A model generated the notes under the pieces. The model was not told the DNA's origin. It was given only the letters and a program-made list of their open reading frames with translations, and ran no database searches. This document shows, in pieces, positions 27,837 through 61,811 of a stretch of DNA of 64,000 bases. Made by a program: the position numbers and the translations under genes. Within the stretch, counting starts at the first letter, position 1; each line of letters starts with the position of its first letter. The stretch comes from an uncultured Candidatus Saccharibacteria bacterium (GTDB lineage Bacteria; Patescibacteriota; Minisyncoccia; UBA6257; UBA11618), in assembly GCA_964432405.1 (NCBI GenBank), contig CAYSNH010000001.1, positions 122,932 to 186,931 on the forward strand, written 5' to 3'.

Positions 27837-29198
27837 TTATCCCTTATCAATAATATCTCTGATCATGATTATTTTTTGGTTCAACATTTGATTTTTTAAA
27901 ATCTCTTTTTTGATTTTATCATAGGCATAAATAGCTGTAGTATGATCTCTTTTACCCAATTTATTAGCAATGTAAGGATAAGATAATCCTAAGATATCCC
28001 TCAAAAGATATATAGATACTTGTCGCGGTTCAACAATCTCCTTTTTTCTAGATCGGCTAATTATATCATTGATAGAAATCTCAAAAAAGTTAGATACGAC
28101 TTTCATTATTTGATCAGGATTGGTTGTTTTAGCTGGTTTTTGAACTATATTATCAATTATTTGATCAAGTGTTTTAGCGCTAACCTCCTCTTTTTTAACC
28201 TCTTTATAAAATAAAACCTTATTTAAAATACCTTCCAACTCCCTTAAATTCTTCTGAGTCTTACCAGCTATAGCATTAACAACCTCGTCGCTTAACTCCA
28301 CCCCTTTTTCTTCTAATTTATTACGTAAAACAGCTACCTTAAGCTCGAAATCAGGTGATGATATATCAACTGTCATCCCACCTTCGAAGCGAGAGCTTAG
28401 TCTTTCCTCAAGAACAGGTATGAATTTAGGTGATCTATCAGAAGATAATATAATCTGTTTATTTTGTTCAAATAAGGCATTAAATGTGTGAAAGAACTCC
28501 TCCTCAGTCTTCTCTTTACCACCAATGAATTGAATATCATCAATAATTAAAACATCTATATTTCTATATTTAGCCTTTATAGTATCCATTCTCTTATTTC
28601 TCATCGCCCAAATAACATCATTGGTGAATTTTTCAGAGGAAACATATTTAACTTTAATATTTCCCTTAGACTTCTTTTTTATCTCGTTACCAGCCGCTTG
28701 AATCAGGTGGGTTTTACCAACTCCCACTCCCCCATAAATAAAAAGAGGGTTGTATTTATTACCCACTGAATTAAGAACGGCTGTTATTGCTGCATAAGCT
28801 AGCTCATTAGTTGATCCAACAGCATAAGACTGAAGAGTGTACTGAGGATTGAGGCTGGTTTCAGGGTCTATCTTGAATTCAGTAAAGCTTAACTGAGTTT
28901 CGTTTTCAGAAGGGGTTTTTTCTACAAGATCACTTGGTATTAAAGGTTTCTTTTGAGAGTAGATAATAAACTCGATCTTCTTAACAGTCTCATCTAGCGA
29001 TCGTAAAGAACCTAAAATAACTTTATCGTACTTTTTTTCTACCCATTCCTTAGCAAAGTTATTAGGTAGGCCTATAACTACCAAACCATCTTTCTTATCA
29101 ACAACCTTACTATTCTTAAACCATGTAACGAAGTTAGGTTTTGATACTTGAAGCTCAATATCTCCCAAGGCCTTTTCCCAAAACTGATTTAGATCCAT
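27837..29198 (-). CDS. dnaA: Chromosomal replication initiator DnaA
   Basis: 453 aa; AAA+ Walker A GGVGVGKTHL, and a C-terminal DNA-binding domain. Confidence 0.95.
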   Translation of the reverse strand: MDLNQFWEKALGDIELQVSKPNFVTWFKNSKVVDKKDGLVVIGLPNNFAKEWVEKKYDKVILGSLRSLDETVKKIEFIIYSQKKPLIPSDLVEKTPSENETQLSFTEFKIDPETSLNPQYTLQSYAVGSTNELAYAAITAVLNSVGNKYNPLFIYGGVGVGKTHLIQAAGNEIKKKSKGNIKVKYVSSEKFTNDVIWAMRNKRMDTIKAKYRNIDVLIIDDIQFIGGKEKTEEEFFHTFNALFEQNKQIILSSDRSPKFIPVLEERLSSRFEGGMTVDISSPDFELKVAVLRNKLEEKGVELSDEVVNAIAGKTQKNLRELEGILNKVLFYKEVKKEEVSAKTLDQIIDNIVQKPAKTTNPDQIMKVVSNFFEISINDIISRSRKKEIVEPRQVSIYLLRDILGLSYPYIANKLGKRDHTTAIYAYDKIKKEILKNQMLNQKIIMIRDIIDKG

Positions 29199-29312
29199 AT
29201 CCTTATTTTAATCACTCTCATCAACTCGTCAAAATTTCAATGAAATAAGTCTTAGTTTAATAACATGTGGATTAGTTGTGGAAAACTATATTTTCTGGTA
29301 TAAATAATTATT
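29199..29312. promoter_or_regulatory. dnaA upstream region with additional DnaA-box-like sites; divergent rpmH/dnaA promoters
   Basis: TGTGGATTA at 29265-29273 and TTGTGGAAAA at about 29275. Confidence 0.4.
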
Positions 29313-29447
29313 ATGTCAACAACATATCAACCTAAGAAAAGAAAGAGAAAGAGAGTCCACGGATTCTTAAAAAGAAGCAGTACCCCTAGCGGTCGACGGG
29401 TTATAAAGAGCCGTCGTCAAAAGGGTAGAAAAAACATTACTGTTTAA
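29313..29447 (+). CDS. rpmH: 50S ribosomal protein L34
   Basis: 44 aa, not in the ORF track; [44 protein letters not shown], a classic L34, with its stop overlapping the rnpA ATG (TAAATG). Confidence 0.85.
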
Positions 29448-29750
29448 ATGCTAGCCAAAAAAAACAGGCTTCCTATTCAATACTTAAAGAGTAAAAAACC
29501 AGAAGTTAAACGCTCCCCCTCTCTTACTCTAAAAAAATATCCTAATGATAAAAACCTTCCTCGGGTAGGGGTTATGGTTGGTAAAAAAACAGTTAAGTCA
29601 GCTGTTAAGAGAAACGAGTTAAAGAGACTGGTCTTTGATCAGGTGGGAAAAATATTATCTGAATTAAAATCATTTGATTATTTAGTTGTGATTAGTAAGA
29701 ATAATTCTAAAGAACAATTAATCGAAGAAATTAATAAATTATTTAAATAG
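29448..29750 (+). CDS. rnpA: RNase P protein component
   Basis: 100 aa, basic; KKNRLPIQYLK…PRVGVMVGKK fits the RnpA pattern and the conserved position after rpmH. Confidence 0.85.
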   Translation: MLAKKNRLPIQYLKSKKPEVKRSPSLTLKKYPNDKNLPRVGVMVGKKTVKSAVKRNELKRLVFDQVGKILSELKSFDYLVVISKNNSKEQLIEEINKLFK

Positions 29751-30479
29751 ATGTTTAACACCTTCCTCACACAACCTATATTCAACGCCCTTATTTTTTT
29801 ATACAACAACATTGGAGATTTTGGAGTATCTATTATTTTATTAACTTTAATTATCAGAACTATTCTCGCTCCTCTTTTTTATAAGAGTTTTAAGAATCAA
29901 ACTCTCTTACAAAAACTTCAACCAGAGATACAAAAAATCCAACACGATCACAAGCATGATCGTGAAGAGCAAGCTCGAAGAATGTTGGAGTTATATCGTC
30001 AACACAAGGTTAACCCTTTTGCTGGCTTCTTGTTAATACTTGTTCAACTACCTATATTAATTGCAGTCTATAGGGTTTTTTATTTAGGAGTCACAGATGA
30101 AACATTAAAAAATCTTTATTCTTTCGTTTCCCACCCGGACGTGGTTAATAGCAGTTTTCTTGGCTTGATTGATTTATCAAATCGGAGTATTCTTATTGTT
30201 GTTTTAGCTGCTGTCTTTCAGTATGTGCACGGTCGTCTAACTCTTCCTAAAATAAAGGAGGGTGAGCCAGAGCCACAAGCTGTTAAGGTTAGCAAGAAGA
30301 TGATTTGGATTGGTCCAGTATTAGCGATCGCTATATTAATAACCATGCCTTCCGCTGTTGGAATTTATTGGTTAACAACAACCTTATTTTCTTTAGCTCA
30401 ACAAATATATATTAATAAAAAGATTTATGGAGATGACGAAAGCAACAATACAACGAATCCTGGAGTTAGTGGGGTTTAA
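29751..30479 (+). CDS. yidC: Membrane protein insertase YidC/Oxa1 (short form)
   Basis: 242 aa with 5 TM; …ILAPLFYKS…LQPEIQKIQ…YRQHKVNPFAG… are conserved YidC core motifs. Confidence 0.85.
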   Translation: MFNTFLTQPIFNALIFLYNNIGDFGVSIILLTLIIRTILAPLFYKSFKNQTLLQKLQPEIQKIQHDHKHDREEQARRMLELYRQHKVNPFAGFLLILVQLPILIAVYRVFYLGVTDETLKNLYSFVSHPDVVNSSFLGLIDLSNRSILIVVLAAVFQYVHGRLTLPKIKEGEPEPQAVKVSKKMIWIGPVLAIAILITMPSAVGIYWLTTTLFSLAQQIYINKKIYGDDESNNTTNPGVSGV

Positions 30480-30855
30480 GGATTTTTCTATTAACTTAGA
30501 TAATGAAGGAAGAAAATTAATAATCTTTATTAACGAAGGAGATTGGTTTAAAGCATGGGTTCCTAGGGTTATTAGCGATCTTAATCATATCGCTAAGGTT
30601 TTAGCTAATAAAAACAATCACAACCCTGTTTTTATTGATGTAAATAATTATCGCAAAGAACGAGAGAATATTATTATAGATATTGCTAAGGCTGCTGCAA
30701 GAAAAGTAGTTATTACTAAGGAAGACGTTAGATTGCCAGCTATGAACTCTTATGAAAGAAGGATTGTTCATCTAGAACTATCTACTCGTCCAGATGTAGA
30801 AACTGAAAGCGCTGGTGAGGGAGTTAGTCGCTGTGTTATTGTGAAGCCTCTTTAA
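30427..30855 (+). CDS. jag: Jag/KhpB-like R3H RNA-binding protein
   Basis: R3H motif YERRIVHLELS, in the conserved position after yidC. Overlaps the yidC end by 53 nt, so the start may lie slightly downstream. Confidence 0.8.
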   Translation: MEMTKATIQRILELVGFKDFSINLDNEGRKLIIFINEGDWFKAWVPRVISDLNHIAKVLANKNNHNPVFIDVNNYRKERENIIIDIAKAAARKVVITKEDVRLPAMNSYERRIVHLELSTRPDVETESAGEGVSRCVIVKPL

Positions 30856-31999
30856 CAACCTCTTCATCTACCCCCTCCTCTTCCTCCTCAGTCATTTCTT
30901 TAGTATCAGTTGCTAGCGTTAAGCTATAAAGCTTTCTATTAAATCTATTAATAAAATATAATTTATTATCTATTATTTTTAAGTCGATAGCATCAATGTT
31001 ATCAGATCCGTTATATAAGCTACTCGTTTTAATTGATTGATTATCATCATCAATAGTAAAAGATTTAATAACATCGTTAGATATAAACTCTCTATTTAAA
31101 TAGTCATCGGGTAGAGATGTGTTCGAAGGTATTTGATTTGGGATGGCGCAGTAAAAAATATTTTGATTAATAACACATTTAGAAGCTAGGGTTTTGAAAT
31201 CAAAATTAACAACAATTTTATTTATCTCTGAATTAATTAAGTTAAAAATTCCACCATCTTTCTTATTAAAGGCAGATGTTAATCTCCAATTCCCTTTTTG
31301 ATTAATCATTAAACCGTTACCAGAAGCCACTTTATTAATTTTTTTAGTACTTAGGTTAATTAGCCAAGCATTGGAAATATATTTGGTGGTAGGTCTATCT
31401 ATCGCGATCACCTCACTTGGCGTCACCCAGCTTAATTCAGAGCCTGTTAAATGGATATTTAAAATAGATCTAGAAGAGCCTTTTTTAAGATCTAGTATTT
31501 TTAAATTATTATTATTTAAATAAATAATCTCATTAGAGTTTTCCGGGTGCCAGTCGGCAGAGGTGGTATTTTTAGGAAGAGGTGTCCAGTTATTATCATT
31601 GGTGTTGTATATAGAAAAAAATGGTTGATTAGGATAATTAAATTTAATCATTATTTTTCTACCATCCTCAGAAGATTTAACCTTATTAATCCCCTCTATT
31701 TTTTGACTAGATATTTTTTCAGAATCTGAGCCAGTATTCTTTTTTATTTCTCCTAACGCGTTAATAATATAAATATTTTTTGTGGCCGGATTAATAGAGT
31801 AACCAAGAACATCTTCTTGTGATAAAATATTTATCTTATTTTCAGCAACCACACCAAGCTCACCATCTTTAGAGTCATCAGTTAGTAGATCCACTATTTT
31901 AAAATCTATATTACTATCTGAGTCTAAAAATAAATAAATTAAAAAACCGGTAATAATAATTATAAGAATTATTGAGATTGTTATAATAATTTTTCGCAT
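30836..31999 (-). CDS. Hypothetical N-terminally membrane-anchored protein with repetitive beta-rich (propeller-like) extracellular domain and acidic C-terminal tail
   Basis: 387 aa; TM at residues 5-25, N/S/T-rich repeats, C-terminal EEEEEGVDEE. This is the last gene of the T4SS-like block. Confidence 0.4.
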   Translation of the reverse strand: MRKIIITISIILIIIITGFLIYLFLDSDSNIDFKIVDLLTDDSKDGELGVVAENKINILSQEDVLGYSINPATKNIYIINALGEIKKNTGSDSEKISSQKIEGINKVKSSEDGRKIMIKFNYPNQPFFSIYNTNDNNWTPLPKNTTSADWHPENSNEIIYLNNNNLKILDLKKGSSRSILNIHLTGSELSWVTPSEVIAIDRPTTKYISNAWLINLSTKKINKVASGNGLMINQKGNWRLTSAFNKKDGGIFNLINSEINKIVVNFDFKTLASKCVINQNIFYCAIPNQIPSNTSLPDDYLNREFISNDVIKSFTIDDDNQSIKTSSLYNGSDNIDAIDLKIIDNKLYFINRFNRKLYSLTLATDTKEMTEEEEEGVDEEVVKEASQ

Positions 32000-32003
32000 T
32001 TAA

Positions 32004-33281
32004 TTATGGTTTAGTAGATGGTTGTTTAACATTGGGAATTTCAACGGTAAAGGTTGATTTATCAACGCGCACATCTAATATTGATGGATTAATTATATAT
32101 AAAATAGTGGTAGCTAGAGCTAAAAGAACAAGTCCAAATATAGCGCTTGTAATAATGTCTTTAGCCTCCGCTATTTTACTAGTATTACCACCTGAAACGG
32201 TCCACATCACGCCGCCGTAGGTAATCATTATAAAAGCAAGAATACCAGATATACCTAAGGCAAACTGATAAATTAAAACTATATAACCACCAATATCTTC
32301 CACTTGCTCCTTTCCTAGTATAGGAACGCAAAGTTTATAACCAAGACCATCCGGCCCACATTCTAATTTTTTAACATTCGTAATCTCAAGGCTGCCCTTA
32401 CCAGACATAAGAAAGGTTAGCTTGTCATTGTAGATTCTCATTGTAGCACTCGACCTAGTCTCTCCCCGTCGCCTTTGTTCATTAGTAACGCGCTCCGCAT
32501 AAGTCCTAGCAGCCGCTCTATTAAACTCATCTCTATTAATATCTAACCAACTTGCTGTTAAAGCAGCGTGATCCTTTATAAAACCACCCTTTCCCTCCCA
32601 TAGAGCTTGAAAAGTGGATCTATATGCCACATCACCTTCTTCAGAATCAAAATAAGCTAAAAGGTCACTTTTACCACCGTTAGCTCTAGCCTTAAAAATA
32701 CCCGAGGGGCCATACTTACTAGCCCACCTTTGATTAAGCCTGGCCTTGTCTTCTGGGTAAAGACTCATGCTCATCAACTCAGTAAAAAATAATTTTTCAT
32801 TAGTGCCATTTCCATCAGAGCCTAAAACAATTCTATCCTCAGGGTAAAGGGTTCCTTGTATAAATAATAATTTACCTCTTAAAACATCGTGACCATTATC
32901 ATTTCCTAGGCGATTTAAATCACTTGAAAAAATATTACCCGTTATTCGCTCGTACTCATCAGCTAACCTTTTTCTATACTCTCCAGACGTGCCTTTTAAT
33001 AAGTTCCAAGTAGTGAGCTCGTCTACATCAAGGTATGGATCGTAAAGAGCTCTCTTCATTGTTTGAGCATCTCTCTTAATTTTTCTAGCTAGATCCACTT
33101 CACTTAAATGATCTAATCTATCTGTTGATGTCGTTCGGTCTATATTTGTCATTGAGACATTTCTTGCCCCAGCCCTTGTTTCAGCTCCTTCTCTGGCAAG
33201 CTCTGCCTCCATAGATAATTGACTAAAGGCAATAGGAGTTGATAGAACAAATAATATTATAATAATAAAAACTTTTCTCAT
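32004..33281 (-). CDS. Secreted protein with C-terminal VirB2/TrbC-like pilin domain
   Basis: 425 aa with a signal peptide MRKVFIIIILFVLSTPIAFS. The C-terminal roughly 90 aa form two hydrophobic helices separated by VSGGNTSKIAEAKD, a pattern shared with the paralogs at 60424..61811. Confidence 0.45.
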   Translation of the reverse strand: MRKVFIIIILFVLSTPIAFSQLSMEAELAREGAETRAGARNVSMTNIDRTTSTDRLDHLSEVDLARKIKRDAQTMKRALYDPYLDVDELTTWNLLKGTSGEYRKRLADEYERITGNIFSSDLNRLGNDNGHDVLRGKLLFIQGTLYPEDRIVLGSDGNGTNEKLFFTELMSMSLYPEDKARLNQRWASKYGPSGIFKARANGGKSDLLAYFDSEEGDVAYRSTFQALWEGKGGFIKDHAALTASWLDINRDEFNRAAARTYAERVTNEQRRRGETRSSATMRIYNDKLTFLMSGKGSLEITNVKKLECGPDGLGYKLCVPILGKEQVEDIGGYIVLIYQFALGISGILAFIMITYGGVMWTVSGGNTSKIAEAKDIITSAIFGLVLLALATTILYIINPSILDVRVDKSTFTVEIPNVKQPSTKP

Positions 33282-33940
33282 TTTATTGTTAGATTTATTT
33301 TTTTAATAGCCACTTCACCAATATTTTTATTATTAATTACATTTATATTTAAATTAACAGAGGTTGGGCTGTTGTTAGTTGGTATATCTAGCTCTAAAAT
33401 ATTAGGCCTCTTAACATCCTTACCAGAGTGCTTAATATTATTAGAAAGCCAATTAAAGTTTAAATCCGATAGATTGCCTATATTAAAAAATAAGGGCCAC
33501 GCCTTAATGATACTTATTCCAGCTGGTATCGTATGATTCATAAAATTTCTTTCAATAATAACTTTGGGAATTACTTTAGGAATGATAAAGCTTTTTTCTA
33601 AATTACCTCCTTCAATATTTTTTATTAAAACCCTAACAAATATATTGCTACGACTCACATTAAATTTATTAGCAGTTATTTTTTGTAGGCCAACACCTTT
33701 TTGAAATAGCTTTCCATCTATATGCCACTCTATTAATTTATTTTTAACATTTAATAATCTACCACCCTCTATTAACTCAAAGCTCATATTTAATGAGGAG
33801 CCGTCAGTTGGCATTATTTTCCCCTGGTAAAATCCTGGTACAAAACTACCCCCCTCCCAATTAAATAAAAATTCTTGTCCTTGAGCAAGAGCGGGTAGAG
33901 ATAATAAACAAATAAAAATTATTAAAATTATACGATTCAT
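33278..33940 (-). CDS. Hypothetical secreted protein
   Basis: 220 aa, signal peptide …LPALAQGQ, N-rich beta-type sequence. Confidence 0.4.
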   Translation of the reverse strand: MNRIILIIFICLLSLPALAQGQEFLFNWEGGSFVPGFYQGKIMPTDGSSLNMSFELIEGGRLLNVKNKLIEWHIDGKLFQKGVGLQKITANKFNVSRSNIFVRVLIKNIEGGNLEKSFIIPKVIPKVIIERNFMNHTIPAGISIIKAWPLFFNIGNLSDLNFNWLSNNIKHSGKDVKRPNILELDIPTNNSPTSVNLNINVINNKNIGEVAIKKINLTIK

Positions 33941-34353
33941 ATTTTAGTAATTACTTTAGTAGTCATCCTAACCTTAGACTTCTTTTTTCTTTTAGGTCCC
34001 CTTTTAACTTTAGACCCCTTACCTGTTACCGAGCTAACTTTATGCACTGTTTCTGAGGCGATTGATTCAGGATGGTTGTGAATGTATATAGTTGAGATAA
34101 GTAAAATCGTCTTTAATGGAAGGGCGTTTAAAAAAGGAATAAACTCAATTAATACTGATGCGGCGTATAACTCACCTCTTGCTCCTCTGAACAATAACCA
34201 AAACTGAACAGGTAGCCACACAATAATATTTATAATCCATTTCACAACTTCTCCTGGTCCAATAGCAAAAGTAACCACCATTTCTATTAACTCAGCAAGA
34301 GCAACAAATCCTACTAAGATAAAAGATTCTATTAATCCAATCTTACTACCCAT
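33937..34353 (-). CDS. Small membrane protein (3-4 TM) downstream of VirB4
   Basis: 138 aa with a hydrophobic core and a basic C-terminal tail. Confidence 0.4.
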   Translation of the reverse strand: MGSKIGLIESFILVGFVALAELIEMVVTFAIGPGEVVKWIINIIVWLPVQFWLLFRGARGELYAASVLIEFIPFLNALPLKTILLISTIYIHNHPESIASETVHKVSSVTGKGSKVKRGPKRKKKSKVRMTTKVITKI

Positions 34354-36043
34354 TTAATAAATCTTTTGGATTAGTTGTAATAATCTGATCTTCAAGATAA
34401 GAAGCTACTATCTTAATAATGACATGATTTAGGCCTGCAAAAAATAGCCCCTCTCCCACAGGGGTGTCTAATAAGAAGTTTTTTTCACTATCCGTTAGAT
34501 TAAAGGTTTTTGCCAATAAATCGATCATTGCTGGTTGTTGCTTTAATAGTATTTGTAGGGCGGAGTTGGTGATAATGGGTCTTCCATAAGGAGATCTTAA
34601 AAAGTCTTCAACGTCTTGAGTGATAGTAGTAACGCCTAAGTAGTATTTTCTCGCTCTCTTAACTAAACCAAACATGAAAGAGGCGCCATCAGGATATTTC
34701 ATCATCCACCAAGCCTCATCAACTATCATTACTCGTTGTTTTAATTCACTCTTAATTAAATTCCAAATAAAGTTAACAATTATATACATTGCTATTGGTC
34801 TTAACTCCTCCTCCAGGTCTCTAATAGAAAAAACAACTAGTCGATTCCTTACATTAACGTTGGTTGGTTGGTTAACAAATCCCGCATAACTTCCCTGGGT
34901 GTATCGATATAGGCGCTGAGCCAAGGACTGACCACCAGTCAAGCTATTAAGAACAGTTTCTAAATCAGATAATAACGGCGGTTGAGCTTTAGAAAAATCT
35001 TTTCCAGGTACTATGTCTCTCGAAGCATAAGTTTCAGCCACAGCTCTGTCTAAGAGAGCTTCTTCTTCAGGAGTTATCTCTCCTAGCATTATCTTTAATA
35101 AGCCAGTTATATTAACTATGTGAGATCGTAGGGCGTCAGCAGGATCTTCATCCTTAGGGATGATTGGTAGATCAAAAGGATTGATATGATCCTTAGAGGC
35201 TAAGGAGATGTTAAAGAAGCTGCCACCTACCGCCTCGGCTAGATTTTTATATTCATTCTCGGGATCGATAATTAAAACATCCGTCCCAGTCATTAGTAGT
35301 CTCAATGCTTCCAGCTTTGCAGCATATGACTTACCAGCACCAGAGGTAGCAAAGATAACTTGATTAGCATTTTCTAGAGAGAATCGATCAAAAATAACTA
35401 AGGTGTTATTACTAAGATTGATACCTTGTAGAACCCCGCTGTCCGAGGTTAGTGTGGCAGAAACAAAAGGAAAAAATGAAGATGCTGGCGAGGAGTTAAA
35501 AGGAGATGTGATCATTAGAGAGTCTGTGCCTATCGGTAAAGCTGCATCAAAAGCCTCTATTTGCTGGAAGGTTGCCGGCTTGCTATAAACCAAGCGACTT
35601 TCTAATAAGTGATTAATCTTACCCTCCAACTTTTTTAATTCATTAACACTATCAGCATAAATAGTTATATAAACCGAGACATTAAATAAATGTTCAGTTG
35701 CTTGCTGTAGGGAGTCTCGTAGAGACTCAACATCTTGAAGAGCCGTCTCTAATTTAGGACTCCTAACCATACCCTTTTCACTTTTCTCAATTACCTGAGA
35801 TTCTATCTGAGCCGTCTTTTTTCTTAAGTTTTTTAAAGCAATAGCTGTATCTACCGGATGAACAAAGATAGATACATCCATTAATTCAGGAGCATTAATA
35901 ATTGGCGAGAACCATCCTGTGGCTAGGTAGCGAGGATAGGCTGAGATAAATATAGTCTTAGTATATTTATTACCCAGCTTTAAATAATTAGGATTAACCT
36001 CTAAAGCAGATGGAGCTATTATATTTTTAATTTCATTATTCAT
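34346..36043 (-). CDS. virB4: VirB4/TraE/TrbE-family T4SS ATPase, ATPase domain
   Basis: 565 aa; Walker A IFATSGAGKSY, the VirB4-characteristic IIDPENEY, and Walker B MIVDEAWWMM, with an overall Gram-positive-type VirB4 layout. Confidence 0.85.
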   Translation of the reverse strand: MNNEIKNIIAPSALEVNPNYLKLGNKYTKTIFISAYPRYLATGWFSPIINAPELMDVSIFVHPVDTAIALKNLRKKTAQIESQVIEKSEKGMVRSPKLETALQDVESLRDSLQQATEHLFNVSVYITIYADSVNELKKLEGKINHLLESRLVYSKPATFQQIEAFDAALPIGTDSLMITSPFNSSPASSFFPFVSATLTSDSGVLQGINLSNNTLVIFDRFSLENANQVIFATSGAGKSYAAKLEALRLLMTGTDVLIIDPENEYKNLAEAVGGSFFNISLASKDHINPFDLPIIPKDEDPADALRSHIVNITGLLKIMLGEITPEEEALLDRAVAETYASRDIVPGKDFSKAQPPLLSDLETVLNSLTGGQSLAQRLYRYTQGSYAGFVNQPTNVNVRNRLVVFSIRDLEEELRPIAMYIIVNFIWNLIKSELKQRVMIVDEAWWMMKYPDGASFMFGLVKRARKYYLGVTTITQDVEDFLRSPYGRPIITNSALQILLKQQPAMIDLLAKTFNLTDSEKNFLLDTPVGEGLFFAGLNHVIIKIVASYLEDQIITTNPKDLLNG

Positions 36044-36709
36044 TTATTTTTTATCTTTCTGAATAGAGACGCCCCTTTTTTCAATTAGTGCTGGATTATA
36101 GAAGTTGTAAAATAGTTCGACGACCTCGTCTTCTGATAAAGGAACGGCTCTCAAGCCAACTCTATTTAAGCCAGCCGTCACCTGATCTACTCTCAGGTCT
36201 AATTGGCGTTTATTTTCTATGAACTGGTCACTTTCAGTCTTCTTTTCTTCCGCCCTCTTCTTTTTAAATAATCCAAATAATCCTCCAGCTATTTTTTTAC
36301 CTATTTTAGGAAGAGCGATCGGATCATAAGGAACTATAATAAAAAAAGTTTTAGACATAATAGGATTTCTTTCTACAAACGCCTTAACAAAATCTCGATA
36401 GTCAGTAATTATATTTTTTAATAAGCTGGTAGGTTCTTTTTGGTGAAGTTTTTTTAATTGATTAAGATAGTTGTCAATATTAATTTTTCGAGAATGAATT
36501 ATTTCTTGAATAGAAAAACTAAGAGAGTTCAAGAATTCTTGATAGCTAAAAATAATCAAATTCTTTTCTTCTTCAGATTTAAGATCGAAGTTAATTCCTG
36601 AAACTAATAATATTTTTCTAAAACCACCGTTTTTTAAAACAACCACATCATCTTTAATATGATCAACGCTGATAATTTCTTGAGTTGCTAAAGATTTTTG
36701 TTTGGGCAT
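36044..36709 (-). CDS. VirB4 N-terminal domain encoded as a separate ORF
   Basis: 221 aa; …DDVVVLKNGGFRKILLVSGINFDLKSEEEKN… matches the CagE/TrbE/VirB N-domain pattern. Its stop TAA is directly followed by the ATG of the ATPase ORF, and the combined length of 786 aa equals canonical VirB4. Confidence 0.55.
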   Translation of the reverse strand: MPKQKSLATQEIISVDHIKDDVVVLKNGGFRKILLVSGINFDLKSEEEKNLIIFSYQEFLNSLSFSIQEIIHSRKINIDNYLNQLKKLHQKEPTSLLKNIITDYRDFVKAFVERNPIMSKTFFIIVPYDPIALPKIGKKIAGGLFGLFKKKRAEEKKTESDQFIENKRQLDLRVDQVTAGLNRVGLRAVPLSEDEVVELFYNFYNPALIEKRGVSIQKDKK

Positions 36710-36723
36710 TGTTTTATTATAAT

Positions 36724-37194
36724 TTATCTATAATCAACACGACGAGCCACTTCTCTTTCGCCGGTAGTTTTTCTAAAAACCTCATATTCATTCTTCATTT
36801 TTTTAAGCCTTTGTAAGAAAGGAAGCATAAAAGACTTCTCTCCCTTAATAGGCTTGCTAGAAGTGTCTAGTTTTAATTTTAAGTTTGATAGTCCTTTTTT
36901 AGCAACTTGCTTACCACCCTTTTTTTTCCAGATGTAAATGCGAGGACGCCAATAATAATTAATCATAGATGTTAAGAGGGTGAGAAACGATCTGCCATTA
37001 TATTTAACAAAGGCAAAAGAGGCGCTTATTATAGCTATTAAAATAGTGAACACTAGCCAGAAATAAAAGTTTAAGACAAAGAAGCTAAAGAAGATTATTA
37101 AGAAGCCAGCTGCAACGTATAAAAACTGTTTAATAGTTAGAGGACCAACTATCCTATCTTCTATATCTATAAATTGAGGGACTTGAAAATGCAT
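36724..37194 (-). CDS. VirB3-like small membrane protein
   Basis: 156 aa; …IVGPLTIKQFLYVAAGFLIIFFSFFV… followed by a second TM helix; positioned immediately upstream of VirB4 as VirB3 usually is. Confidence 0.45.
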   Translation of the reverse strand: MHFQVPQFIDIEDRIVGPLTIKQFLYVAAGFLIIFFSFFVLNFYFWLVFTILIAIISASFAFVKYNGRSFLTLLTSMINYYWRPRIYIWKKKGGKQVAKKGLSNLKLKLDTSSKPIKGEKSFMLPFLQRLKKMKNEYEVFRKTTGEREVARRVDYR

Positions 37195-37195
37195 A

Positions 37196-37975
37196 TTAAC
37201 TAAACCATTTAGAATCTGGAATCTTAACTTTGATTTCTCCTTTAGTCGGAGGTATTTGAGGGGTGTTGAGAGGTGTGAAGAAATTGCTATAATGCACGAT
37301 TCTTTGAACCTCTACATTATCATCTAAAGAGTTCTCTATCTCAACTCTAACAGGAGCTTCTTCAACAGATCTTTCCTTAACAGGTTCTTTATAAGTGAAA
37401 GAAGACTTACTCTCTTCTTCTACAGGCTTAATCTCTCCTATTTCTTCATGAAGAACAAATGGTTGATTGGGAGTAGGTGGTTTTATTTTTTGTTTTGCTA
37501 ATGGCAGATTGTTAGGAGCCTCAGTTGCTGGCTTATTTTTAACCTTGGTGGGCTTAGCACTTAACTTAGCAGGATTAGAATATTCTGTTACCGGCGCCGG
37601 TTTATCAGGGTAGGATGATAGTTGGTCAGGTGGAGCTGTAGAGTATTCAATCATCTCATGAACATCAACGCCTATTTTCTTTAACTCTGCCTCGATTGGC
37701 TGCAAGCACTCATCATGAATTTTTTGAGTCACTTCTTTAGCAGCCTCATAATTTATTTTTAGTTGAGATCCTAGTTCATTAGCAAAGTCTCGGGGATCTA
37801 AATCCTGAACAGCTACTCGAAGAATTAATTTAGAAATAATCCTTTCCTTATCAGACTTCAAGCTAAGCTTATCATTGAGAGTAGTTATATTTTTTACTAT
37901 TTCTTCAGAGCTAAGCCAGTCTCTGATTTTATCAGATAATGAAGCGAAGGCGTTTTGTAATGATGTTGTGACCAT
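37196..37975 (-). CDS. Hypothetical protein with Pro/Lys-rich central linker
   Basis: 259 aa, no TM; lies inside the T4SS-like block. Confidence 0.4.
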   Translation of the reverse strand: MVTTSLQNAFASLSDKIRDWLSSEEIVKNITTLNDKLSLKSDKERIISKLILRVAVQDLDPRDFANELGSQLKINYEAAKEVTQKIHDECLQPIEAELKKIGVDVHEMIEYSTAPPDQLSSYPDKPAPVTEYSNPAKLSAKPTKVKNKPATEAPNNLPLAKQKIKPPTPNQPFVLHEEIGEIKPVEEESKSSFTYKEPVKERSVEEAPVRVEIENSLDDNVEVQRIVHYSNFFTPLNTPQIPPTKGEIKVKIPDSKWFS

Positions 37976-37989
37976 AATTTTTTTATATT

Positions 37990-39849
37990 CTAACTAAAAG
38001 ACGGGCCATTTATATAATCCTTTAATTCCTTTAATTCTTTGTATTCTTTTCCACCAGGCGCCATTGATATGAGATCTTCTCTTATGCCTGGACTCTCTCT
38101 TCTCCTTACTTCAGGCATTTTTATTTCTAAATGTTGGTTAATAGTGCTTTGAAGGACCTGCTTCTTTTCTGTTTGAGGTGATCGGGCTAATTCTTTTAAT
38201 TGATTTTTTGTTAGCCCCATAGCCACCTCGACCTTTCTAAGTTCTGAGGTGGCTATATTTACAATCTCTTTAGCAGGAATTTTGCCAGTCGCCTTTCTAA
38301 TTGCTTCAGCTACATTTTCAGTTCCCTCAACAAATTCCCCAGCTAAAGAAGGCATGGTTTTTAGAGCCTCTTCTTTGGAGTTCATCTTTTTAGCTGAGTT
38401 GACAAAAGGTTTTATAGCAGCCTCTCGATCACCCCCTCTTTTATCAAGAAAGTCATCTAATTGACCTCGTTTCGACAGCTCATTAAGCTTAGCAGCTTTA
38501 GCAGTCGCTCCTAATTCTGAGTAACCATATAGCTCCGTGTTATTAAGACCCTTCAACTTTTCATTTTGATAGCTGTCAACTTGCTTTTTTCTATCAGCTC
38601 TCTTTTTAGAGTCTGCATCAGCTCTGTAGCTCGATGTAAATCTTCTAATACCAGGCATTCTAGCTAGTCCAGATCCAGCAGCTCCTAACCCAGCCTTACC
38701 AGCTCGTAAAGGCAGTTTAGCAAATCCTTTACCAATCTTTTTGGTCCTACCCTTAAATCTGTTATAAAGAGCAAGTGAGCTATTTTCCACCATGTCTTTT
38801 GCGCTACTACTTATTTTTTTTGAAATAATCAGATTACCTAGCAATAATCCAATGACAATAGATAGTCGAGCTCCTGTTTCAGCAATATTAGCAATAAAAT
38901 CACTAACATTACCACCGGAACCGCTAATAACACCAAAGACGCCACTAGGATGAGTTTTGAAATTGGTCAAGAAGATAATAGTTAAATAAATAAAGAATAG
39001 TGAAACTGGCAGAAAGGCCAGGTATTCAATGAATTTTCCCTGCCATTCCTCCCAATTCTTTTTAAATTTAGGAATTGCGCTAGAGATTAAGGCTAAGGGT
39101 AGCATTATTAACAACAGGGATAAGGCTATATAACGCACTAGGACTGATAAGGACAATATCATCATAGTACCCCCTCCCAAGACGGTGAAAGCAACAACAA
39201 AAAATAGTGCTGCTAGTAATTGAAGTGATGCCTTGCCAAATTGAAAATCAGCGCTTTCTGTAAATTTATCCTCCTCCTCTTCAAGAGTATCTGTTTTCAT
39301 AGCCTCTTGTAATCCTAGGGCATGTGCAAGAGATTTGGAAAATTCACTGAAGTCCCCGTGGCTAGCGTTTGGAGTTGATTTTGTCACAAAGAAATTACTA
39401 ACAACACCAGTAGCATCAATAAATACACCGGCAATTGATAAGCTAAAGTTGATTAGAAGAGCGACTATAATAATCTTTGGCAAAAGATTTTTATATGTAT
39501 ACCCTTGCAACCTTATAATAGTTCCGATAGCAGCTGTAATTATAGCCACAACCAACAACAAGTTAGCAAAGTCGCGAGATATCTGCCAACCAACTTGTAC
39601 TAAGGGGCTGTTTATTAGATTGGCATTTAATTCCAGACCTACTTGGATTAAAAATCCAGCTATCATAAAGACAATTGCCGCTAAATAACCAATAAGATAG
39701 ACAGCAAAATACAAAAATTTTGCCATTGCGGCATCCACTGCTGAGAGCGTACTGAGAGCGCCGCCCTCTAAAAAACCTGCTTGAGCTAAGCTAGGTATTA
39801 AAATTACCAAGAGTAGAAGTAGAAGTAGTATTTTATGTCCTTTAAACAT
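37990..39849 (-). CDS. VirB6/TrbL-like polytopic membrane protein with long hydrophilic C-terminal domain
   Basis: 619 aa; a signal peptide then at least 7 TM in the first about 370 aa, and a roughly 250-aa charged tail. This resembles Gram-positive VirB6 analogues. Confidence 0.5.
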   Translation of the reverse strand: MFKGHKILLLLLLLVILIPSLAQAGFLEGGALSTLSAVDAAMAKFLYFAVYLIGYLAAIVFMIAGFLIQVGLELNANLINSPLVQVGWQISRDFANLLLVVAIITAAIGTIIRLQGYTYKNLLPKIIIVALLINFSLSIAGVFIDATGVVSNFFVTKSTPNASHGDFSEFSKSLAHALGLQEAMKTDTLEEEEDKFTESADFQFGKASLQLLAALFFVVAFTVLGGGTMMILSLSVLVRYIALSLLLIMLPLALISSAIPKFKKNWEEWQGKFIEYLAFLPVSLFFIYLTIIFLTNFKTHPSGVFGVISGSGGNVSDFIANIAETGARLSIVIGLLLGNLIISKKISSSAKDMVENSSLALYNRFKGRTKKIGKGFAKLPLRAGKAGLGAAGSGLARMPGIRRFTSSYRADADSKKRADRKKQVDSYQNEKLKGLNNTELYGYSELGATAKAAKLNELSKRGQLDDFLDKRGGDREAAIKPFVNSAKKMNSKEEALKTMPSLAGEFVEGTENVAEAIRKATGKIPAKEIVNIATSELRKVEVAMGLTKNQLKELARSPQTEKKQVLQSTINQHLEIKMPEVRRRESPGIREDLISMAPGGKEYKELKELKDYINGPSFS

Positions 39850-39854
39850 TATGA

Positions 39855-41249: not shown

Positions 41250-42031
41250 TAAATACTTATTTGATTAATCTTTAATAAATTCAAAACCTTGCTAGTTACC
41301 TCCTTAAACCCAGCATCTATTGACGGGTTGTATCTTAAAGCCGCTAAAGCCTCCAGAGGGCTGTCATTGGCATCCCGCAACTTAGTCATAACTATCTTTT
41401 GCTTAATCATTAAAGAGATTTGTTGCTTGTGTATACTGGTAGCTGGCACAGGAACTTCTAATTTATAAAAATCAGCTATAGCACCGTCATAAGAAGAAGT
41501 TATTTTATCAAAATTATTTTTACTAAACTCCTCCCAATTTATCTTCTGTGTAGCGAAGTGCTTGTTGATTATTTTTTGGAAAGAACGTAAGTAGTTGGCA
41601 AGAGCTTCTTTGTCGGTTCGATGAGAAATATTAATCCTTGCTAATTTAACATCATTAAATCCAAGATCTATATTATTAACTTTCTCCAGCTCTTCATTAA
41701 TTATAGAGTTGGCTATATTTTCTGGATTAAGAGCCTTGGCATATTTCTGATCATCAATATCTACTAAACCATTATTATTTAATTCCTTGATATGTTGAGC
41801 TATCTTATTACCTAGCTGTTTAGTAGTCTCTTCTGCAACTGGATTAGTTTGACGTGTGTTAAGAGGAATATCCTCATTTAAGGTATTTGAAATATTTGAT
41901 TTCTCCTGAGCTGTTTTTGGTGGTGATGCTGTTGGAGTCTGAGTCTCTAATGAATTACCAAAAAATATTAATCCACCCAAAACAAACAGGCCCATAAGCA
42001 AAAACAAACCGAATTTACGCACGGATCTCAT
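41249..42031 (-). CDS. Hypothetical bitopic membrane protein (first gene of T4SS-like block)
   Basis: 260 aa with an N-terminal TM (FGLFLLMGLFVLGGLIFF). The start overlaps the preceding gene by 1 nt. Confidence 0.4.
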   Translation of the reverse strand: MRSVRKFGLFLLMGLFVLGGLIFFGNSLETQTPTASPPKTAQEKSNISNTLNEDIPLNTRQTNPVAEETTKQLGNKIAQHIKELNNNGLVDIDDQKYAKALNPENIANSIINEELEKVNNIDLGFNDVKLARINISHRTDKEALANYLRSFQKIINKHFATQKINWEEFSKNNFDKITSSYDGAIADFYKLEVPVPATSIHKQQISLMIKQKIVMTKLRDANDSPLEALAALRYNPSIDAGFKEVTSKVLNLLKINQISI

Positions 42032-60423: not shown

Positions 60424-60918
60424 ATGCCTCAATTTTTATCACACATAGTTCCTCAGTGTACGGGAAGATTATTCCCTAACAATATAGAAAGACTGTGTAC
60501 TTTTTGTGACTTAATAAAGATGCTTGATAATATAGTTAAATTTTTAGCTGGTCTGGCTCCCTTTTTAGCTATCATTCTTATAATTTGGGGAGCCTTCCTT
60601 GTCATTACAGCCGGCGGATCTTCTGATAGATTGTCTAGTGGTAAAAAAGTTATTCAAGCTGCTGTCGTTGGTCTAGCCATCGTACTTGGAGCTTGGGTTA
60701 TAGTTAGTACAGTATTTCTCATCATTACTGGCGGCAATAGATTTTATGGCGCTCCATTGCCTTGGCATTCTATTCGCTGCACTCAACTTAACACCCCTTC
60801 TAAACCTCGATCTCAATCACTAGGGCCAGGTAGGCATGGTGATGTTAGTAGCGCACAAGAAGCTAGAGAATTTGGCTATAGTGAAGAGCATATAAGAATG
60901 ATTTATCCGGAAGAATAG
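60424..60918 (+). CDS. VirB2/TrbC-like pilin paralog 1
   Basis: Two hydrophobic helices flank a GGSSDRLSSGKK loop (…IILIIWGAFLVITAGGSS…AAVVGLAIVLGAWVIV…). The likely true start is the ATG at 60520 (MLDNIVKFL…). Confidence 0.45.
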   Translation: MPQFLSHIVPQCTGRLFPNNIERLCTFCDLIKMLDNIVKFLAGLAPFLAIILIIWGAFLVITAGGSSDRLSSGKKVIQAAVVGLAIVLGAWVIVSTVFLIITGGNRFYGAPLPWHSIRCTQLNTPSKPRSQSLGPGRHGDVSSAQEAREFGYSEEHIRMIYPEE

Positions 60919-60952
60919 TCACTTACTATAATAATCTGGTATTATTAATATA

Positions 60953-61378
60953 ATGAAAGTAATCTTACTAAAACTTCTTCAAGTTCAGACAGCTTTTGCT
61001 AGAAATCACTATATGATGATTGATGATTCTGGTGGTGGTCAGATTTCTCCAGTTGGAGCCGGACAGATTTCTCCAGTTGGAGCCGGACAGATTTCTCCAG
61101 TTGGCGGCGGCGATATAGTTTTTACCAGCCCTTTAGGCGGGTATAGTAATCTGCAGCTCATCCTTGATAGAGTCATTAATGGCTTACTTATTTTAGCTAC
61201 CCCAGTAGTGGTTATTATGATTCTTTGGGCTGGTTATCAATTTATAGTATCTGGCGGTAGTCCAGATAAGATAACTAAGGCTCGTCAGACTATTCTTTGG
61301 GCTGCTGTTGGTTATGGTATTTTGCTTCTATCAAGAGGAATTACCTTTATAATTCAACAGTTATTAACAGGATACTAA
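60953..61378 (+). CDS. VirB2/TrbC-like pilin paralog 2 with internal tandem repeat
   Basis: A signal-like N-terminus MKVILLKLLQVQTAFA, the repeat GQISPVGA x3, then …IMILWAGYQFIVSGGSPDKITKARQTILWAAVGYGILLL…. Confidence 0.5.
   Translation: MKVILLKLLQVQTAFARNHYMMIDDSGGGQISPVGAGQISPVGAGQISPVGGGDIVFTSPLGGYSNLQLILDRVINGLLILATPVVVIMILWAGYQFIVSGGSPDKITKARQTILWAAVGYGILLLSRGITFIIQQLLTGY
61037..61108 (+). repeat. Perfect 3 x 24-bp tandem repeat inside pilin paralog 2
   Basis: ggtcagatttctccagttggagcc / ggacagatttctccagttggagcc / ggacagatttctccagttggcggc, in frame, encoding GQISPVGA repeats. Confidence 0.85.
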
Positions 61379-61448
61379 TTGTTGAAACTAAACAATCGGT
61401 TAAAATAGTAATGAAAGGTCGTTAAGGAAATCTTATTGTATTAAATTA

Positions 61449-61811
61449 ATGAACAAATTAATGAAGTGGTCTATCATTGCCACATCTTCCCTTCCTTTGC
61501 TGTCATTTGCTCAGCCTTTTAGATCAGGATATGTAGGTGGTCAGTCTGGACAGTCAGCTTCTCGTATTCAGAGTATTGAGGGTGTTATTGACGCAATGAA
61601 TACAGCTATAGGTTGGATCCAAAATATTCTTTTAATTTTAGCTATTATATTAGTATTATGGGCAGCCTTTCTTTATATCACCTCTGGAGGAGATGAGGGT
61701 AAGGTTGGGGCAGCTAAAAAAGCTTTATTCGCAGCAGCTATCGGAATAGCAATCGTGCTTCTAGCCTATTCCATCACTCCTATTATTCAACAGCTGTTAC
61801 AAGCTAGTTAA
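61449..61811 (+). CDS. VirB2/TrbC-like pilin paralog 3
   Basis: A clear signal peptide MNKLMKWSIIATSSLPLLSFAQP, then …ILLILAIILVLWAAFLYITSGGDEGKVGAAKKALFAAAIGIAIVLLAYSI…. The C-terminal IIQQLL is shared with paralog 2. Confidence 0.5.
   Translation: MNKLMKWSIIATSSLPLLSFAQPFRSGYVGGQSGQSASRIQSIEGVIDAMNTAIGWIQNILLILAIILVLWAAFLYITSGGDEGKVGAAKKALFAAAIGIAIVLLAYSITPIIQQLLQAS

What the first reader, a model, noticed from the sequence alone, without database searches (positions are those of the whole stretch)
32004..33281. Large secreted protein fused to a C-terminal VirB2-like pilin module
T4SS pilins are normally about 100-120 aa. Here a roughly 330-aa extracellular domain carrying a signal peptide precedes a pilin-like two-helix module (…LGISGILAFIMITYGGVMWTVSGGNTSKIAEAKDIITSAIFGLVLLALATT…) homologous to the three stand-alone paralogs at 60424..61811. 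This suggests an adhesin or tip-type pilin presenting a large domain on the filament or at the membrane.
Basis: partly seen in the sequence, partly recalled or inferred. Interest (0 to 1): 0.65.

Follow-up and report, generated by a model that had tools for sequence, protein, structure and literature searches.

The report
Annexin-like domain fused to T4SS pilin
An uncultivated ultra-small (Patescibacteria) bacterium has put an annexin-like domain, a fold best known for binding membranes, in front of the pilin encoded in its type IV secretion operon. That domain is the fastest-changing part of the locus, so it is probably the part that touches the host cell.

Summary
ORF 32004..33281(-) encodes a 425-aa protein with three hydrophobic segments: a signal-peptide-like N-terminus and two C-terminal helices. 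Those helices match Pfam T4SS_pilin (PF18895) at aa 337-397, E=9.4e-10, above the curated cut-off. So do the three stand-alone pilins at 60424..61811.

New here: the roughly 285-aa extracytoplasmic part contains two annexin-type repeats.
- A family profile hits solved annexins IV/V/A2 at E=1e-8.
- The reverse search retrieves bona fide Pfam-annexin proteins.
- The canonical Ca2+ sites are largely degenerate.

The gene sits in a fixed slot of a chromosomal Patescibacteria T4SS operon (PrgI, TrsD, VirB4, two small ORFs, this gene, one more ORF) beside dnaA. This synteny holds in four other independent contig regions. Thirteen homologues share the architecture.

Between close relatives VirB4 is 93% identical and the pilin module 75%, but the annexin domain only 32%.

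Large pilins are common in this lineage (median 271 aa), usually through C-terminal extensions. An annexin N-domain is specific to this clade.

I read it as a variable host-contact head anchored by a pilin module. Whether it sits on the filament or at the membrane is unresolved. It is a new variant of a known kind.

The parts
32004..33281 (-). Whole gene: 425-aa annexin-like/pilin fusion protein
   Evidence: ORF. Translationally coupled to both neighbours. 13 homologues have the same architecture.
33219..33281 (-). Signal-peptide-like N-terminus (aa 1-21, MRKVFIIIILFVLSTPIAFSQ)
   Evidence: Hydrophobic segment 1-25. Mean pairwise identity 83% in the family. Cleavage is inferred, not predicted with a tool.
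33102..33218 (-). Low-confidence linker or helix (aa 22-60) containing the invariant residues D48, T50, H58, L59
   Evidence: Alignment A1. pLDDT below 50 for aa 13-49. Function unknown.
32856..33101 (-). Annexin-type repeat 1 (aa 61-142). The AB loop is YDPYLDVDE and has no GxGT motif.
32595..32843 (-). Annexin-type repeat 2 (aa 147-229). The AB loop has GNGT at aa 157-160.
   Evidence: hit at aa 149-192; GxGT present in 6 of 13 family members: the window protein, P0002, P0009, P0011, P0012, P0017.
32391..32594 (-). Additional helical region (aa 230-297). No annexin repeat detected by sequence.
   Evidence: AF2 helices 238-293, pLDDT about 75-80. No third repeat.
32295..32363 (-). Cys-bracketed junction (aa 307-329: ECGPDGLGYKLCVPILGKEQVED) containing the conserved pre-helix pilin motif YKLCVPILG
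   Evidence: C308 and C318 are the only cysteines and are invariant in all 13 homologues. The equivalent motif (for example GFVPLAPIPGLT) follows the signal peptide directly in 29 of 66 related operon pilins.
32079..32294 (-). VirB2-like two-helix pilin module (aa 330-401; PF18895 match 337-397) with the short polar loop SGGN
   Evidence: Pfam hit above the gathering score. Hydrophobic segments 330-362 and 370-404. 88% mean pairwise identity in the close family.
32007..32078 (-). Short C-terminal tail (aa 402-425)
   Evidence: Alignment A1. Homologues carry a longer Pro-rich tail.
36724..37194 (-). PrgI/VirB3-like protein of the same operon
   Evidence: Pfam PF12666, E=7.9e-10.
36044..36709 (-). 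TrsD / VirB4 N-terminal-like protein
   Evidence: NCBIfam TrsD, E=3e-9, below that model's curated cut-off. Homologues carry PF26593 TraC-like.
34346..36043 (-). VirB4-type ATPase
   Evidence: Pfam P-loop_TraG, AAA_10 and DUF87.
37990..39849 (-). Polytopic membrane protein, probably VirB6/TrbL-like
   Evidence: Weak NCBIfam CD3337/EF1877 hit. The 706-aa protein in the corresponding slot of L087 carries PF19590 TrbL_3; correspondence is by gene order, homology was not tested.
33937..34353 (-). 138-aa membrane protein, syntenic partner, no family hit
   Evidence: Position conserved in L001, L002, L084 and L087.
33278..33940 (-). 220-aa secreted protein, syntenic partner immediately upstream, no family hit
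   Evidence: Position conserved.
30836..31999 (-). 387-aa N-terminally anchored protein, syntenic partner immediately downstream
   Evidence: (only a weak DPPIV_N hit). Position conserved.
60424..61811 (+). Array of three stand-alone PF18895 pilins (164, 141, 120 aa), candidate major subunits
   Evidence: Pfam hits above the gathering score. Alignment A2.

Best explanation
The gene encodes the operon-resident pilin of a chromosomal, oriC-proximal Patescibacteria type IV secretion system. A roughly 285-aa annexin-like domain has been inserted between the signal peptide and the conserved N-terminal motif of the mature pilin.

Shown:
- A signal-like segment, two annexin-type repeats plus a helical extension, a Cys-bracketed junction, and a PF18895 two-helix module.
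- A fixed position in the T4SS operon.
- An N-domain that evolves far faster than anything else in the locus.

Inferred:
- After Sec export the two helices insert as a hairpin with the short SGGN-TSK loop on the cytoplasmic side. This is the topology established for VirB2/TraA-type pilins. It leaves the annexin-like domain and the C-terminal tail outside the cell.
- The pilin module then docks into the T4SS, as a subunit of a filament built mainly from the three short pilins or as a base or tip unit.
- The annexin-like head acts as the variable host-contact element. It most plausibly binds the host envelope or membrane through its aromatic or basic AB loops rather than through canonical Ca2+ bridges.
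For: Pilin module:
- PF18895 at E=9.4e-10, above the gathering score.
- Three hydrophobic segments only.

Annexin homology:
- Family profile against PDB sequences gives annexins IV/V/A2 at E=1e-8 to 1e-5.
- The N-domain profile against 1.84 billion representatives returns 52 hits. These include proteins with 2-5 Pfam Annexin repeats (E down to 2e-78) and five further annexin-like/PF18895 fusions.
- An HMM built from 29 bacterial annexin repeats finds two repeats in all 14 family members.
- AF2 model with the 8-sequence alignment: N-domain pLDDT about 60-90. All top 50 Foldseek PDB hits are annexins or annexin A2 fusion constructs.

Operon membership and synteny.

Insertion point: the motif YKLCVPILG corresponds to the motif that follows the signal peptide directly in 29 of 66 related operon pilins.

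Diversification, window against L001: VirB4 92.9%, DnaA 89.6%, pilin module 74.7%, N-domain 31.6%.

Literature:
- Patescibacteria T4SS with VirB2-like pilins near virB4 and near dnaA are described (PMC12102498).
- The pilin genes were essential for epibiotic growth in the one tested species (PMC10633639, PMC12857230).
Against: - No experiment or tool here shows polymerisation, surface display or lipid binding.
- The canonical annexin Ca2+ sites are degenerate. Repeat 1 lacks GxGT and the acidic cap. Repeat 2 has GxGT in only 6 of 13 members, and the cap position is not conserved.
- Pfam Annexin itself does not hit the protein at E<=0.1.
- Foldseek TM-scores to whole annexins are low (0.2-0.3). 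Only two repeats are found, so this is not a canonical four-repeat core.
- A 30-kDa head on every subunit of a VirB2-type helical filament would be sterically demanding. This is my estimate, not a computation.
- The pilin profile does not detect solved VirB2/TraA pilins by sequence.
Confidence: 0.55

Rival explanations
1. Non-polymerising anchor. The pilin-type hairpin serves only as a membrane anchor or T4SS docking element. The annexin-like domain works at the bacterium's own surface, for example organising or stabilising its own membrane or wall at the secretion site or contact zone, and never enters a filament.
For: - A bulky N-domain is hard to fit on every subunit of a VirB2-type filament (inference).
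- Three ordinary short pilins exist elsewhere to build a filament.
- Annexins are peripheral membrane organisers in eukaryotes (established knowledge).
- Related operon pilins carry very diverse large extensions. This suits a generic anchor.
Against: - The pilin module is the most conserved part of the protein: 88% mean identity, with the pre-helix motif retained. That is more than a simple anchor would need.
- The extreme divergence of the N-domain between near-identical genomes fits interaction with a variable external partner better than a housekeeping role on the cell's own membrane.
Confidence: 0.25
2. Cleavable pro-domain or released effector. The annexin-like domain is removed at or near the Cys-bracketed junction. 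This would yield a normal-sized mature pilin beginning at about YKLCVPILG, and a soluble annexin-like protein released outside the cell.
For: - Canonical T4SS pilins (TraA, VirB2, TrbC) are made with long leaders and are processed (established knowledge).
- In 29 of 66 related operon pilins the same motif lies directly after the signal-peptidase site. In those proteins the motif marks the mature N-terminus.
Against: - No protease or recognisable cleavage site was identified.
- The two invariant cysteines bracket the junction (C308...C318). If they form a disulfide, the two parts would stay linked after a cut within the loop.
- A folded, fast-evolving 285-aa domain is unlike a leader peptide.
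Confidence: 0.15
3. Not a pilin at all. The C-terminus is an ordinary two-pass membrane anchor that resembles PF18895 by composition, and the gene lies next to the T4SS genes by coincidence.
For: - Hydrophobic helices give spurious profile matches.
- One of the three paralogues shows no pairwise alignment.
- No sequence match to solved VirB2/TraA.
Against: - The Pfam score is above the curated threshold.
- An independent iterated HMM scores the module at 2.4e-25, alongside 70 other modules located downstream of virB4.
- The pre-helix motif is shared.
- The same operon slot is kept in four other independent contig regions: L001, L002/L003, L084 and L087.
Confidence: 0.05

Closest known systems
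Patescibacteria (CPR) VirB2-like T4SS pilins, Pfam PF18895 (Quinonero-Coronel et al. 2025, PMC12102498; Wang et al. 2023, PMC10633639)
   Same: - The same Pfam family for the two-helix module.
- Encoded a few genes downstream of virB4 in an MPF-FATA-like operon (PrgI, TrsD, VirB4, VirB6-like) next to dnaA.
- Additional stand-alone pilin genes in an array elsewhere in the genome.
   Different: - The described pilins are treated as small proteins. Stand-alone family members retrieved here are 85-160 aa.
- This one carries about 310 aa between signal peptide and module, and that insert is annexin-like.
- The papers I could search do not mention fusions of the pilin to other domains.
Canonical conjugative pilins VirB2 / TrbC / TraA (PF04956, PF05513)
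   Same: - Signal peptide followed by a hairpin of two hydrophobic helices with a short polar loop.
- Encoded in a T4SS locus.
- Two of the window's stand-alone paralogues give sub-threshold TrbC hits (E=4e-5 and 8e-4).
   Different: - No PF04956 hit for this protein.
- No sequence match to solved pilins.
- The host is a monoderm.
- The protein is 3-4 times larger.
- Cyclisation, acetylation and lipid-bound helical assembly are all unknown here.
Annexins (PF00191), including bacterial annexins (Kodavali et al. 2014, PMC3894181)
   Same: - Profile-level sequence homology, E=1e-8.
- Sequence landmarks YR..L..EY..TG..L..DL and GxGT[DN]E.
- Bacterial annexins are already known to be fused to other domains and to transmembrane segments.
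   Different: - Two repeats rather than four.
- Ca2+-site residues largely lost.
- Exported by a signal peptide rather than cytosolic.
- Fused to a T4SS pilin. The 2014 survey does not mention pilins or secretion (0 occurrences), and no held paper links annexin and T4SS pilin.
Other extended operon pilins of related Patescibacteria
   Same: A PF18895 module in the same operon position. Large extra-membrane extensions are the rule: median length 271 aa, range 88-589 aa.
   Different: - There the module is near the N-terminus and the extension is C-terminal in 48 of 66.
- Some extensions show LAS/hedgehog-type zinc-hydrolase or CHAP-like motifs, at sub-threshold scores only.
- None has the annexin-like domain.
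- N-terminal extensions reach at most 222 aa.

Membership tests
Pfam PF18895 T4SS_pilin (Patescibacteria VirB2-like pilins) | Match to the family HMM above the curated gathering score | tested here: met
   38.9 bits against 26.6, E=9.4e-10, aa 337-397. Precomputed PF18895 on all 8 close homologues.
Pfam PF18895 T4SS_pilin (Patescibacteria VirB2-like pilins) | Signal peptide followed by two hydrophobic helices joined by a short polar loop | tested here: met
   Hydrophobic segments 1-25, 330-362 and 370-404, with loop SGGN. The signal peptide is judged from the sequence only.
Pfam PF18895 T4SS_pilin (Patescibacteria VirB2-like pilins) | Encoded in or near a T4SS (virB4) gene cluster | tested here: met
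   Three genes downstream of virB4, in one translationally coupled operon. The same slot is used in L001, L002/L003, L084 and L087.
Pfam PF18895 T4SS_pilin (Patescibacteria VirB2-like pilins) | Assembles into an extracellular filament | not testable with these tools
   Per PMC12857230, pilus formation by Patescibacteria T4SS is still only a possibility, not an observation.
Canonical VirB2/TrbC pilins (PF04956) | Match to the TrbC/VirB2 HMM | tested here: not met
   No hit at E<=0.1 for this protein. Paralogues give 4e-5 and 8e-4, both below the gathering score.
Canonical VirB2/TrbC pilins (PF04956) | Sequence similarity to pilins with solved pilus structures | tested here: not met
   A profile of 23 pilin modules against PDB sequences gives only chance hits with E>1.
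Canonical VirB2/TrbC pilins (PF04956) | Small mature subunit (about 70-120 aa) | tested here: not met
   About 404 aa after removal of the presumed signal peptide, unless further processed (untested).
Annexin (PF00191) | Match to the Pfam Annexin HMM | tested here: not met
   No hit at E<=0.1. The distant homologue P0009 gives 0.0039, below the gathering score.
Annexin (PF00191) | Profile-level homology to annexins of known structure, reciprocated | tested here: met
   Family profile to annexin IV/V/A2, E=1e-8 to 1e-5. The N-domain profile retrieves proteins with Pfam Annexin E=2e-78, 7e-75, 4e-25 and 7e-24. The bacterial annexin-repeat HMM hits every family member twice.
Annexin (PF00191) | Five-helix annexin repeat fold | tested here: met
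   [not shown]
Annexin (PF00191) | Four-repeat core | tested here: not met
   Only two repeats are detected by sequence. Whole-annexin TM-scores are 0.2-0.3.
Annexin (PF00191) | Type II Ca2+ site: GxGT in the AB loop plus an acidic residue about 38 positions downstream | tested here: inconclusive
   Repeat 1 has YDPYLDVDE instead of GxGT, and R/K/Y/H at the cap position. Repeat 2 has GNGT here and GxGT in 6 of 13 members, but no conserved acidic cap (manual register against P0013).
Annexin (PF00191) | Ca2+-dependent binding to acidic phospholipids | not testable with these tools
   Needs liposome binding assays.
Patescibacteria MPF-FATA-like T4SS (PMC12102498) | VirB4, TrsD, PrgI/VirB3 and VirB6-like genes clustered, often near dnaA | tested here: met
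   dnaA at 27837..29198 lies about 1.6 kb from the end of the operon (30836). The VirB6-like assignment is weak here and is supported by the TrbL_3 hit on the protein in the corresponding slot of L087.
Patescibacteria MPF-FATA-like T4SS (PMC12102498) | Absence of relaxase and coupling protein | not tested
   Only part of the window's ORFs were scanned against Pfam.

The most novel reading that the evidence does not exclude
The annexin-like head is displayed on, or at the tip of, a T4SS pilus. It grips the host cell's membrane phospholipids, so the pilus becomes a membrane-to-membrane bridge, or even a lipid-harvesting conduit, for a bacterium that cannot make its own fatty acids. More broadly, the VirB2-like module of Patescibacteria would be a general display scaffold onto which lineages graft interchangeable host-attack or host-binding heads: annexin-like here, putative wall hydrolases in related lineages.
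Probability: 0.12. Interest if true: 0.85.

Novelty: new variant of a known kind. Interest (0 to 1): 0.6.

Why it matters
Patescibacteria make up a large share of bacterial diversity and live attached to other microbes. In the one genetically tractable species their T4SS and its pilin genes are essential for growth on the host (PMC10633639). What the system touches or transports is unknown.

A pilin that carries a membrane-binding-type fold, diverging from 93%-identical machinery down to 32%, points to the host-specificity determinant of the apparatus. It also gives a soluble domain of about 285 aa that can be expressed and tested for lipid or envelope binding without cultivating the organism.

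It adds a bacterial annexin architecture (exported, pilin-fused, two repeats) that is not in the published survey. It also suggests that large pilin fusions are the rule rather than the exception in these operons.

Tried and rejected
- Single-sequence AlphaFold was useless: mean pLDDT 44.9. The 8-sequence alignment model was used instead.
- Pfam and NCBIfam give nothing for the N-domain itself. The annexin link came only from profile searches and fold comparison.
- A second word-indexed search with the N-domain profile found no new relatives.
- The word-indexed search with a pilin-module profile returned only short proteins of 85-160 aa. It could not be used to survey domain fusions.
- The pilin-module profile against PDB sequences found no VirB2/TraA.
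- The syntenic 220-aa and 387-aa neighbours have no detectable family or solved relative.
- Attempts to firm up hydrolase domains in the C-terminal extensions of other lineages' pilins gave only sub-threshold hits: HH_signal 3.7e-4, CHAP 3.5e-3, Sonic hedgehog N-product 0.0096. Two other extensions gave nothing.
- An assembly or frameshift artefact was rejected because of 13 independent homologues.
- An 'ordinary anchor' reading was rejected because of the above-threshold profile hit, the shared pre-helix motif and the conserved operon slot.
- An internal start producing a short pilin was considered. It was dropped because no methionine is conserved upstream of the module.
Full report
**Observation**

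The ORF at 32004..33281 (minus strand) encodes 425 aa. Its ATG overlaps the stop codon of the upstream gene (ATGA). The next gene starts 4 nt after its stop, so it is translationally coupled within an operon.

Kyte-Doolittle analysis finds three hydrophobic segments only: 1-25, 330-362 and 370-404. The first has the look of a Sec signal peptide (MRKVFIIIILFVLSTPIAFSQ). This is read from the sequence; no predictor was available.

Pfam places aa 337-397 in T4SS_pilin (PF18895) at E=9.4e-10, 38.9 bits against a gathering score of 26.6. The three ORFs at 60424..60918, 60953..61378 and 61449..61811 hit the same family above threshold. Pairwise BLASTP of the C-terminus against them gives 3e-7, 0.024 and nothing. 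The relationship is therefore at the family-profile level.

**Context**

The window is chromosomal. It carries dnaA, dnaN, yidC, jag, gyrA, pnp and an rRNA methylase.

On the minus strand from about 42031 down to 30836 lies one gene string:
- 260 aa
- 464 aa
- a 619-aa polytopic protein (weak CD3337/EF1877 hit; the protein in the corresponding slot elsewhere carries TrbL_3)
- 259 aa
- PrgI/VirB3
- TrsD-like
- VirB4 ATPase
- a 138-aa membrane protein
- a 220-aa secreted protein
- the target gene
- a 387-aa anchored protein

This is the MPF-FATA-like T4SS described for Patescibacteria. That system is often next to dnaA and is accompanied by VirB2-like pilins near virB4 and in separate arrays (PMC12102498). 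The closest VirB4 relatives in species-representative genomes are Paceibacteria/Parcubacteria-type MAGs at 58-71% identity.

**What the large domain is**

Only eight proteins in a 5.8-billion-protein collection resemble the whole protein. All have the same architecture, and one is named as coming from a Patescibacteria group bacterium (alignment A1).

Sequence evidence:
- A profile of that family, searched against the sequences of solved structures, hits annexins IV, V and A2 at E=1e-8 to 1e-5 over query positions 68-194.
- The reverse test also works. The N-domain profile (A3), searched against 1.84 billion representatives, returns 52 proteins. Among them are proteins with two to five Pfam Annexin repeats (E=2e-78, 7e-75, 4e-25, 7e-24). 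Five more distant proteins of 375-401 aa again end in PF18895.
- An HMM that I built from 29 canonical repeats of those bacterial annexins finds two repeats in every one of the 14 family members. In the window protein they lie at aa 87-123 and 149-192.

Structure evidence:
- AlphaFold2 with the 8-sequence alignment gives mean pLDDT 62.6, with the N-domain at about 60-90.
- Foldseek against the PDB returns annexins, or annexin A2 fusion constructs, for all 50 top hits. E is about 1e-3 and whole-chain TM-scores are low.

I conclude that aa 61-229 are two annexin-type repeats, followed by a helical extension (230-297).

The protein is not a canonical annexin:
- Pfam Annexin does not hit it.
- There are two repeats, not four.
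- The Ca2+ site is degenerate. Repeat 1 has YDPYLDVDE in place of GxGT, and a basic or aromatic residue at the acidic-cap position. Repeat 2 keeps GNGT here and GxGT in 6 of 13 members, but has no conserved cap.
- The AB loops carry conserved aromatic residues instead: P[YW][LFVI], and SDWGT in some members. This is compatible with Ca2+-independent interfacial binding, but that is inference.

**Junction**

The only two cysteines (C308, C318) are invariant in all 13 homologues. They bracket ECGPDGLGYKLCVPILG.

The YKLCVPILG part corresponds to a motif such as GFVPLAPIPGLT or YTLLAPLP. In 29 of 66 related operon pilins that motif sits directly after the signal peptide.

The simplest description is therefore a domain inserted between the signal peptide and the N-terminus of the mature pilin.

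**Conservation and synteny**

The same slot is occupied by the close homologues P0008 and P0003 (L001, L002/L003) and by the distant homologues P0012 and P0009 (L084, L087). In each case the order is PrgI, TrsD/TraC-like, VirB4, a small membrane protein, a protein of about 200 aa, the annexin-pilin, and a protein of about 350-390 aa. Three of these regions again lie next to rnpA-yidC-jag-dnaA. For P0017 only a short contig with the upstream 220-aa gene is available.

Mean pairwise identity within the close family:

| Region | Identity |
|---|---|
| Pilin module | 88% |
| Cys loop | 81% |
| Annexin repeats | 54-59% |

Gene by gene, window against L001:

| Gene or region | Identity |
|---|---|
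| VirB4 | 92.9% |
| DnaA | 89.6% |
| YidC | 88.8% |
| PrgI | 82.1% |
| 220-aa protein | 71.4% |
| 387-aa protein | 61.9% |
| Cys loop plus pilin module | 74.7% |
| Annexin-like N-domain | 31.6% |

The N-domain is by far the fastest-evolving element of the locus.

**How unusual is a large pilin here?**

I looked at 80 loci around related virB4 genes and used an iterated HMM of the module. It finds 66 pilin-module genes in 62 loci, 1-3 kb downstream of virB4.
- Median length is 271 aa, range 88-589 aa. Only 8 are 150 aa or shorter.
- 48 have C-terminal extensions of at least 100 aa.
- Only 5 have at least 120 aa before the module, with a maximum of 222 aa.
- None has the annexin-like domain.

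Stand-alone family members found in the large collection are 85-160 aa (that search appears biased towards short proteins).

Extended pilins are therefore normal for this operon slot. An N-terminal, annexin-like extension of about 310 aa is specific to this small clade.

**Mechanism**

Shown: the architecture, the operon membership and the divergence pattern.

Inferred:
- From the topology established for VirB2/TraA-type pilins (both termini outside, loop inside), the annexin-like domain is extracytoplasmic.
- If the module polymerises, the head would sit on the outer face of the filament.
- A 30-kDa head on every subunit looks sterically demanding. I therefore favour a minor, tip or base subunit in a filament built from the three short pilins, or a non-polymerised T4SS-docked form.
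- The extreme divergence of the head between genomes whose machinery is about 90% identical fits contact with a variable external partner, namely the host envelope.

Rivals:
- A pure anchor with a role on the cell's own membrane.
- A cleavable pro-domain or released annexin-like effector.
- A non-pilin anchor, which I disfavour.

**Literature**

Patescibacteria T4SS and their VirB2-like pilins are known, and are essential in one species (PMC12102498, PMC10633639, PMC12857230).

Bacterial annexins with extra domains and transmembrane segments are known (PMC3894181).

I found no paper linking annexin with a T4SS pilin or with Patescibacteria biology, and no mention of pilin-domain fusions. The library is limited to open-access papers.

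**Verdict**

This is a real, conserved and previously undescribed domain combination within a known system, so a new variant of a known kind. Interest is 0.6.

It nominates a concrete, expressible candidate for the host-contact determinant of the Patescibacteria T4SS. Function remains inferred, and the canonical annexin Ca2+ sites are not intact.

Noticed in passing
L019:10095-11864, L031:11035-12711, L039:6319-8004, L067:9894-11120, L049:11966-13267: Operon pilins of related Patescibacteria carry long C-terminal extensions after the pilin module. Several show LAS/hedgehog-type zinc-hydrolase motifs by eye (SLTGGxH...GRAxD...NQHIHxE), and one shows a CHAP-like region. Scores are only sub-threshold: HH_signal 3.7e-4, CHAP 3.5e-3, Sonic hedgehog N-product 0.0096. 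If real, these are pilin/cell-wall-hydrolase fusions. That would bear on the reported lack of VirB1 in most of these systems.
   Followed up: partly
L083:10783-12207: A single 474-aa ORF contains two nearly identical pilin modules in tandem (aa 62-130 and 193-261), followed by a further C-terminal domain.
   Followed up: no
window 32391-33218 compared with L001:5319-6614: The annexin-like N-domain is 31.6% identical between two genomes whose VirB4, DnaA and YidC are 89-93% identical. This is either very rapid diversification or replacement by a divergent allele.
   Followed up: partly
window 60953-61378: The second stand-alone pilin has a threefold tandem peptide repeat (GQISPVGA GQISPVGA GQISPVGG) between its N-terminus and the pilin module.
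   Followed up: no
window 34346-36709: VirB4 is split into a TrsD/TraC-like 221-aa ORF (36044..36709) and a 565-aa ATPase ORF (34346..36043), with one ending where the other starts. The same split occurs in all syntenic loci, so it is not a frameshift.
   Followed up: partly
P0014 (190 aa): A short protein with an N-terminal transmembrane segment and a single annexin-like repeat. The repeat is very similar to repeat 1 of the target (DAQKLKEALYDPWFFIDED...DLNRLGLDIG). It could be a stand-alone relative or a fragment of the fused domain.
   Followed up: no
window 33102-33218 (aa 22-60): The low-confidence region before the first annexin repeat contains residues that are invariant in the close family (D48, T50, H58, L59 in ...IDRTT.TDRL.HLS...). 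It is absent from the distant clade (P0009-P0017). Its function is unexplained.
   Followed up: no
window 27837-42031: The whole T4SS operon ends about 1.6 kb from dnaA, with yidC and jag in between (rnpA too in the annotated syntenic loci). This matches the published observation that Patescibacteria T4SS genes often sit next to the replication origin.
   Followed up: partly
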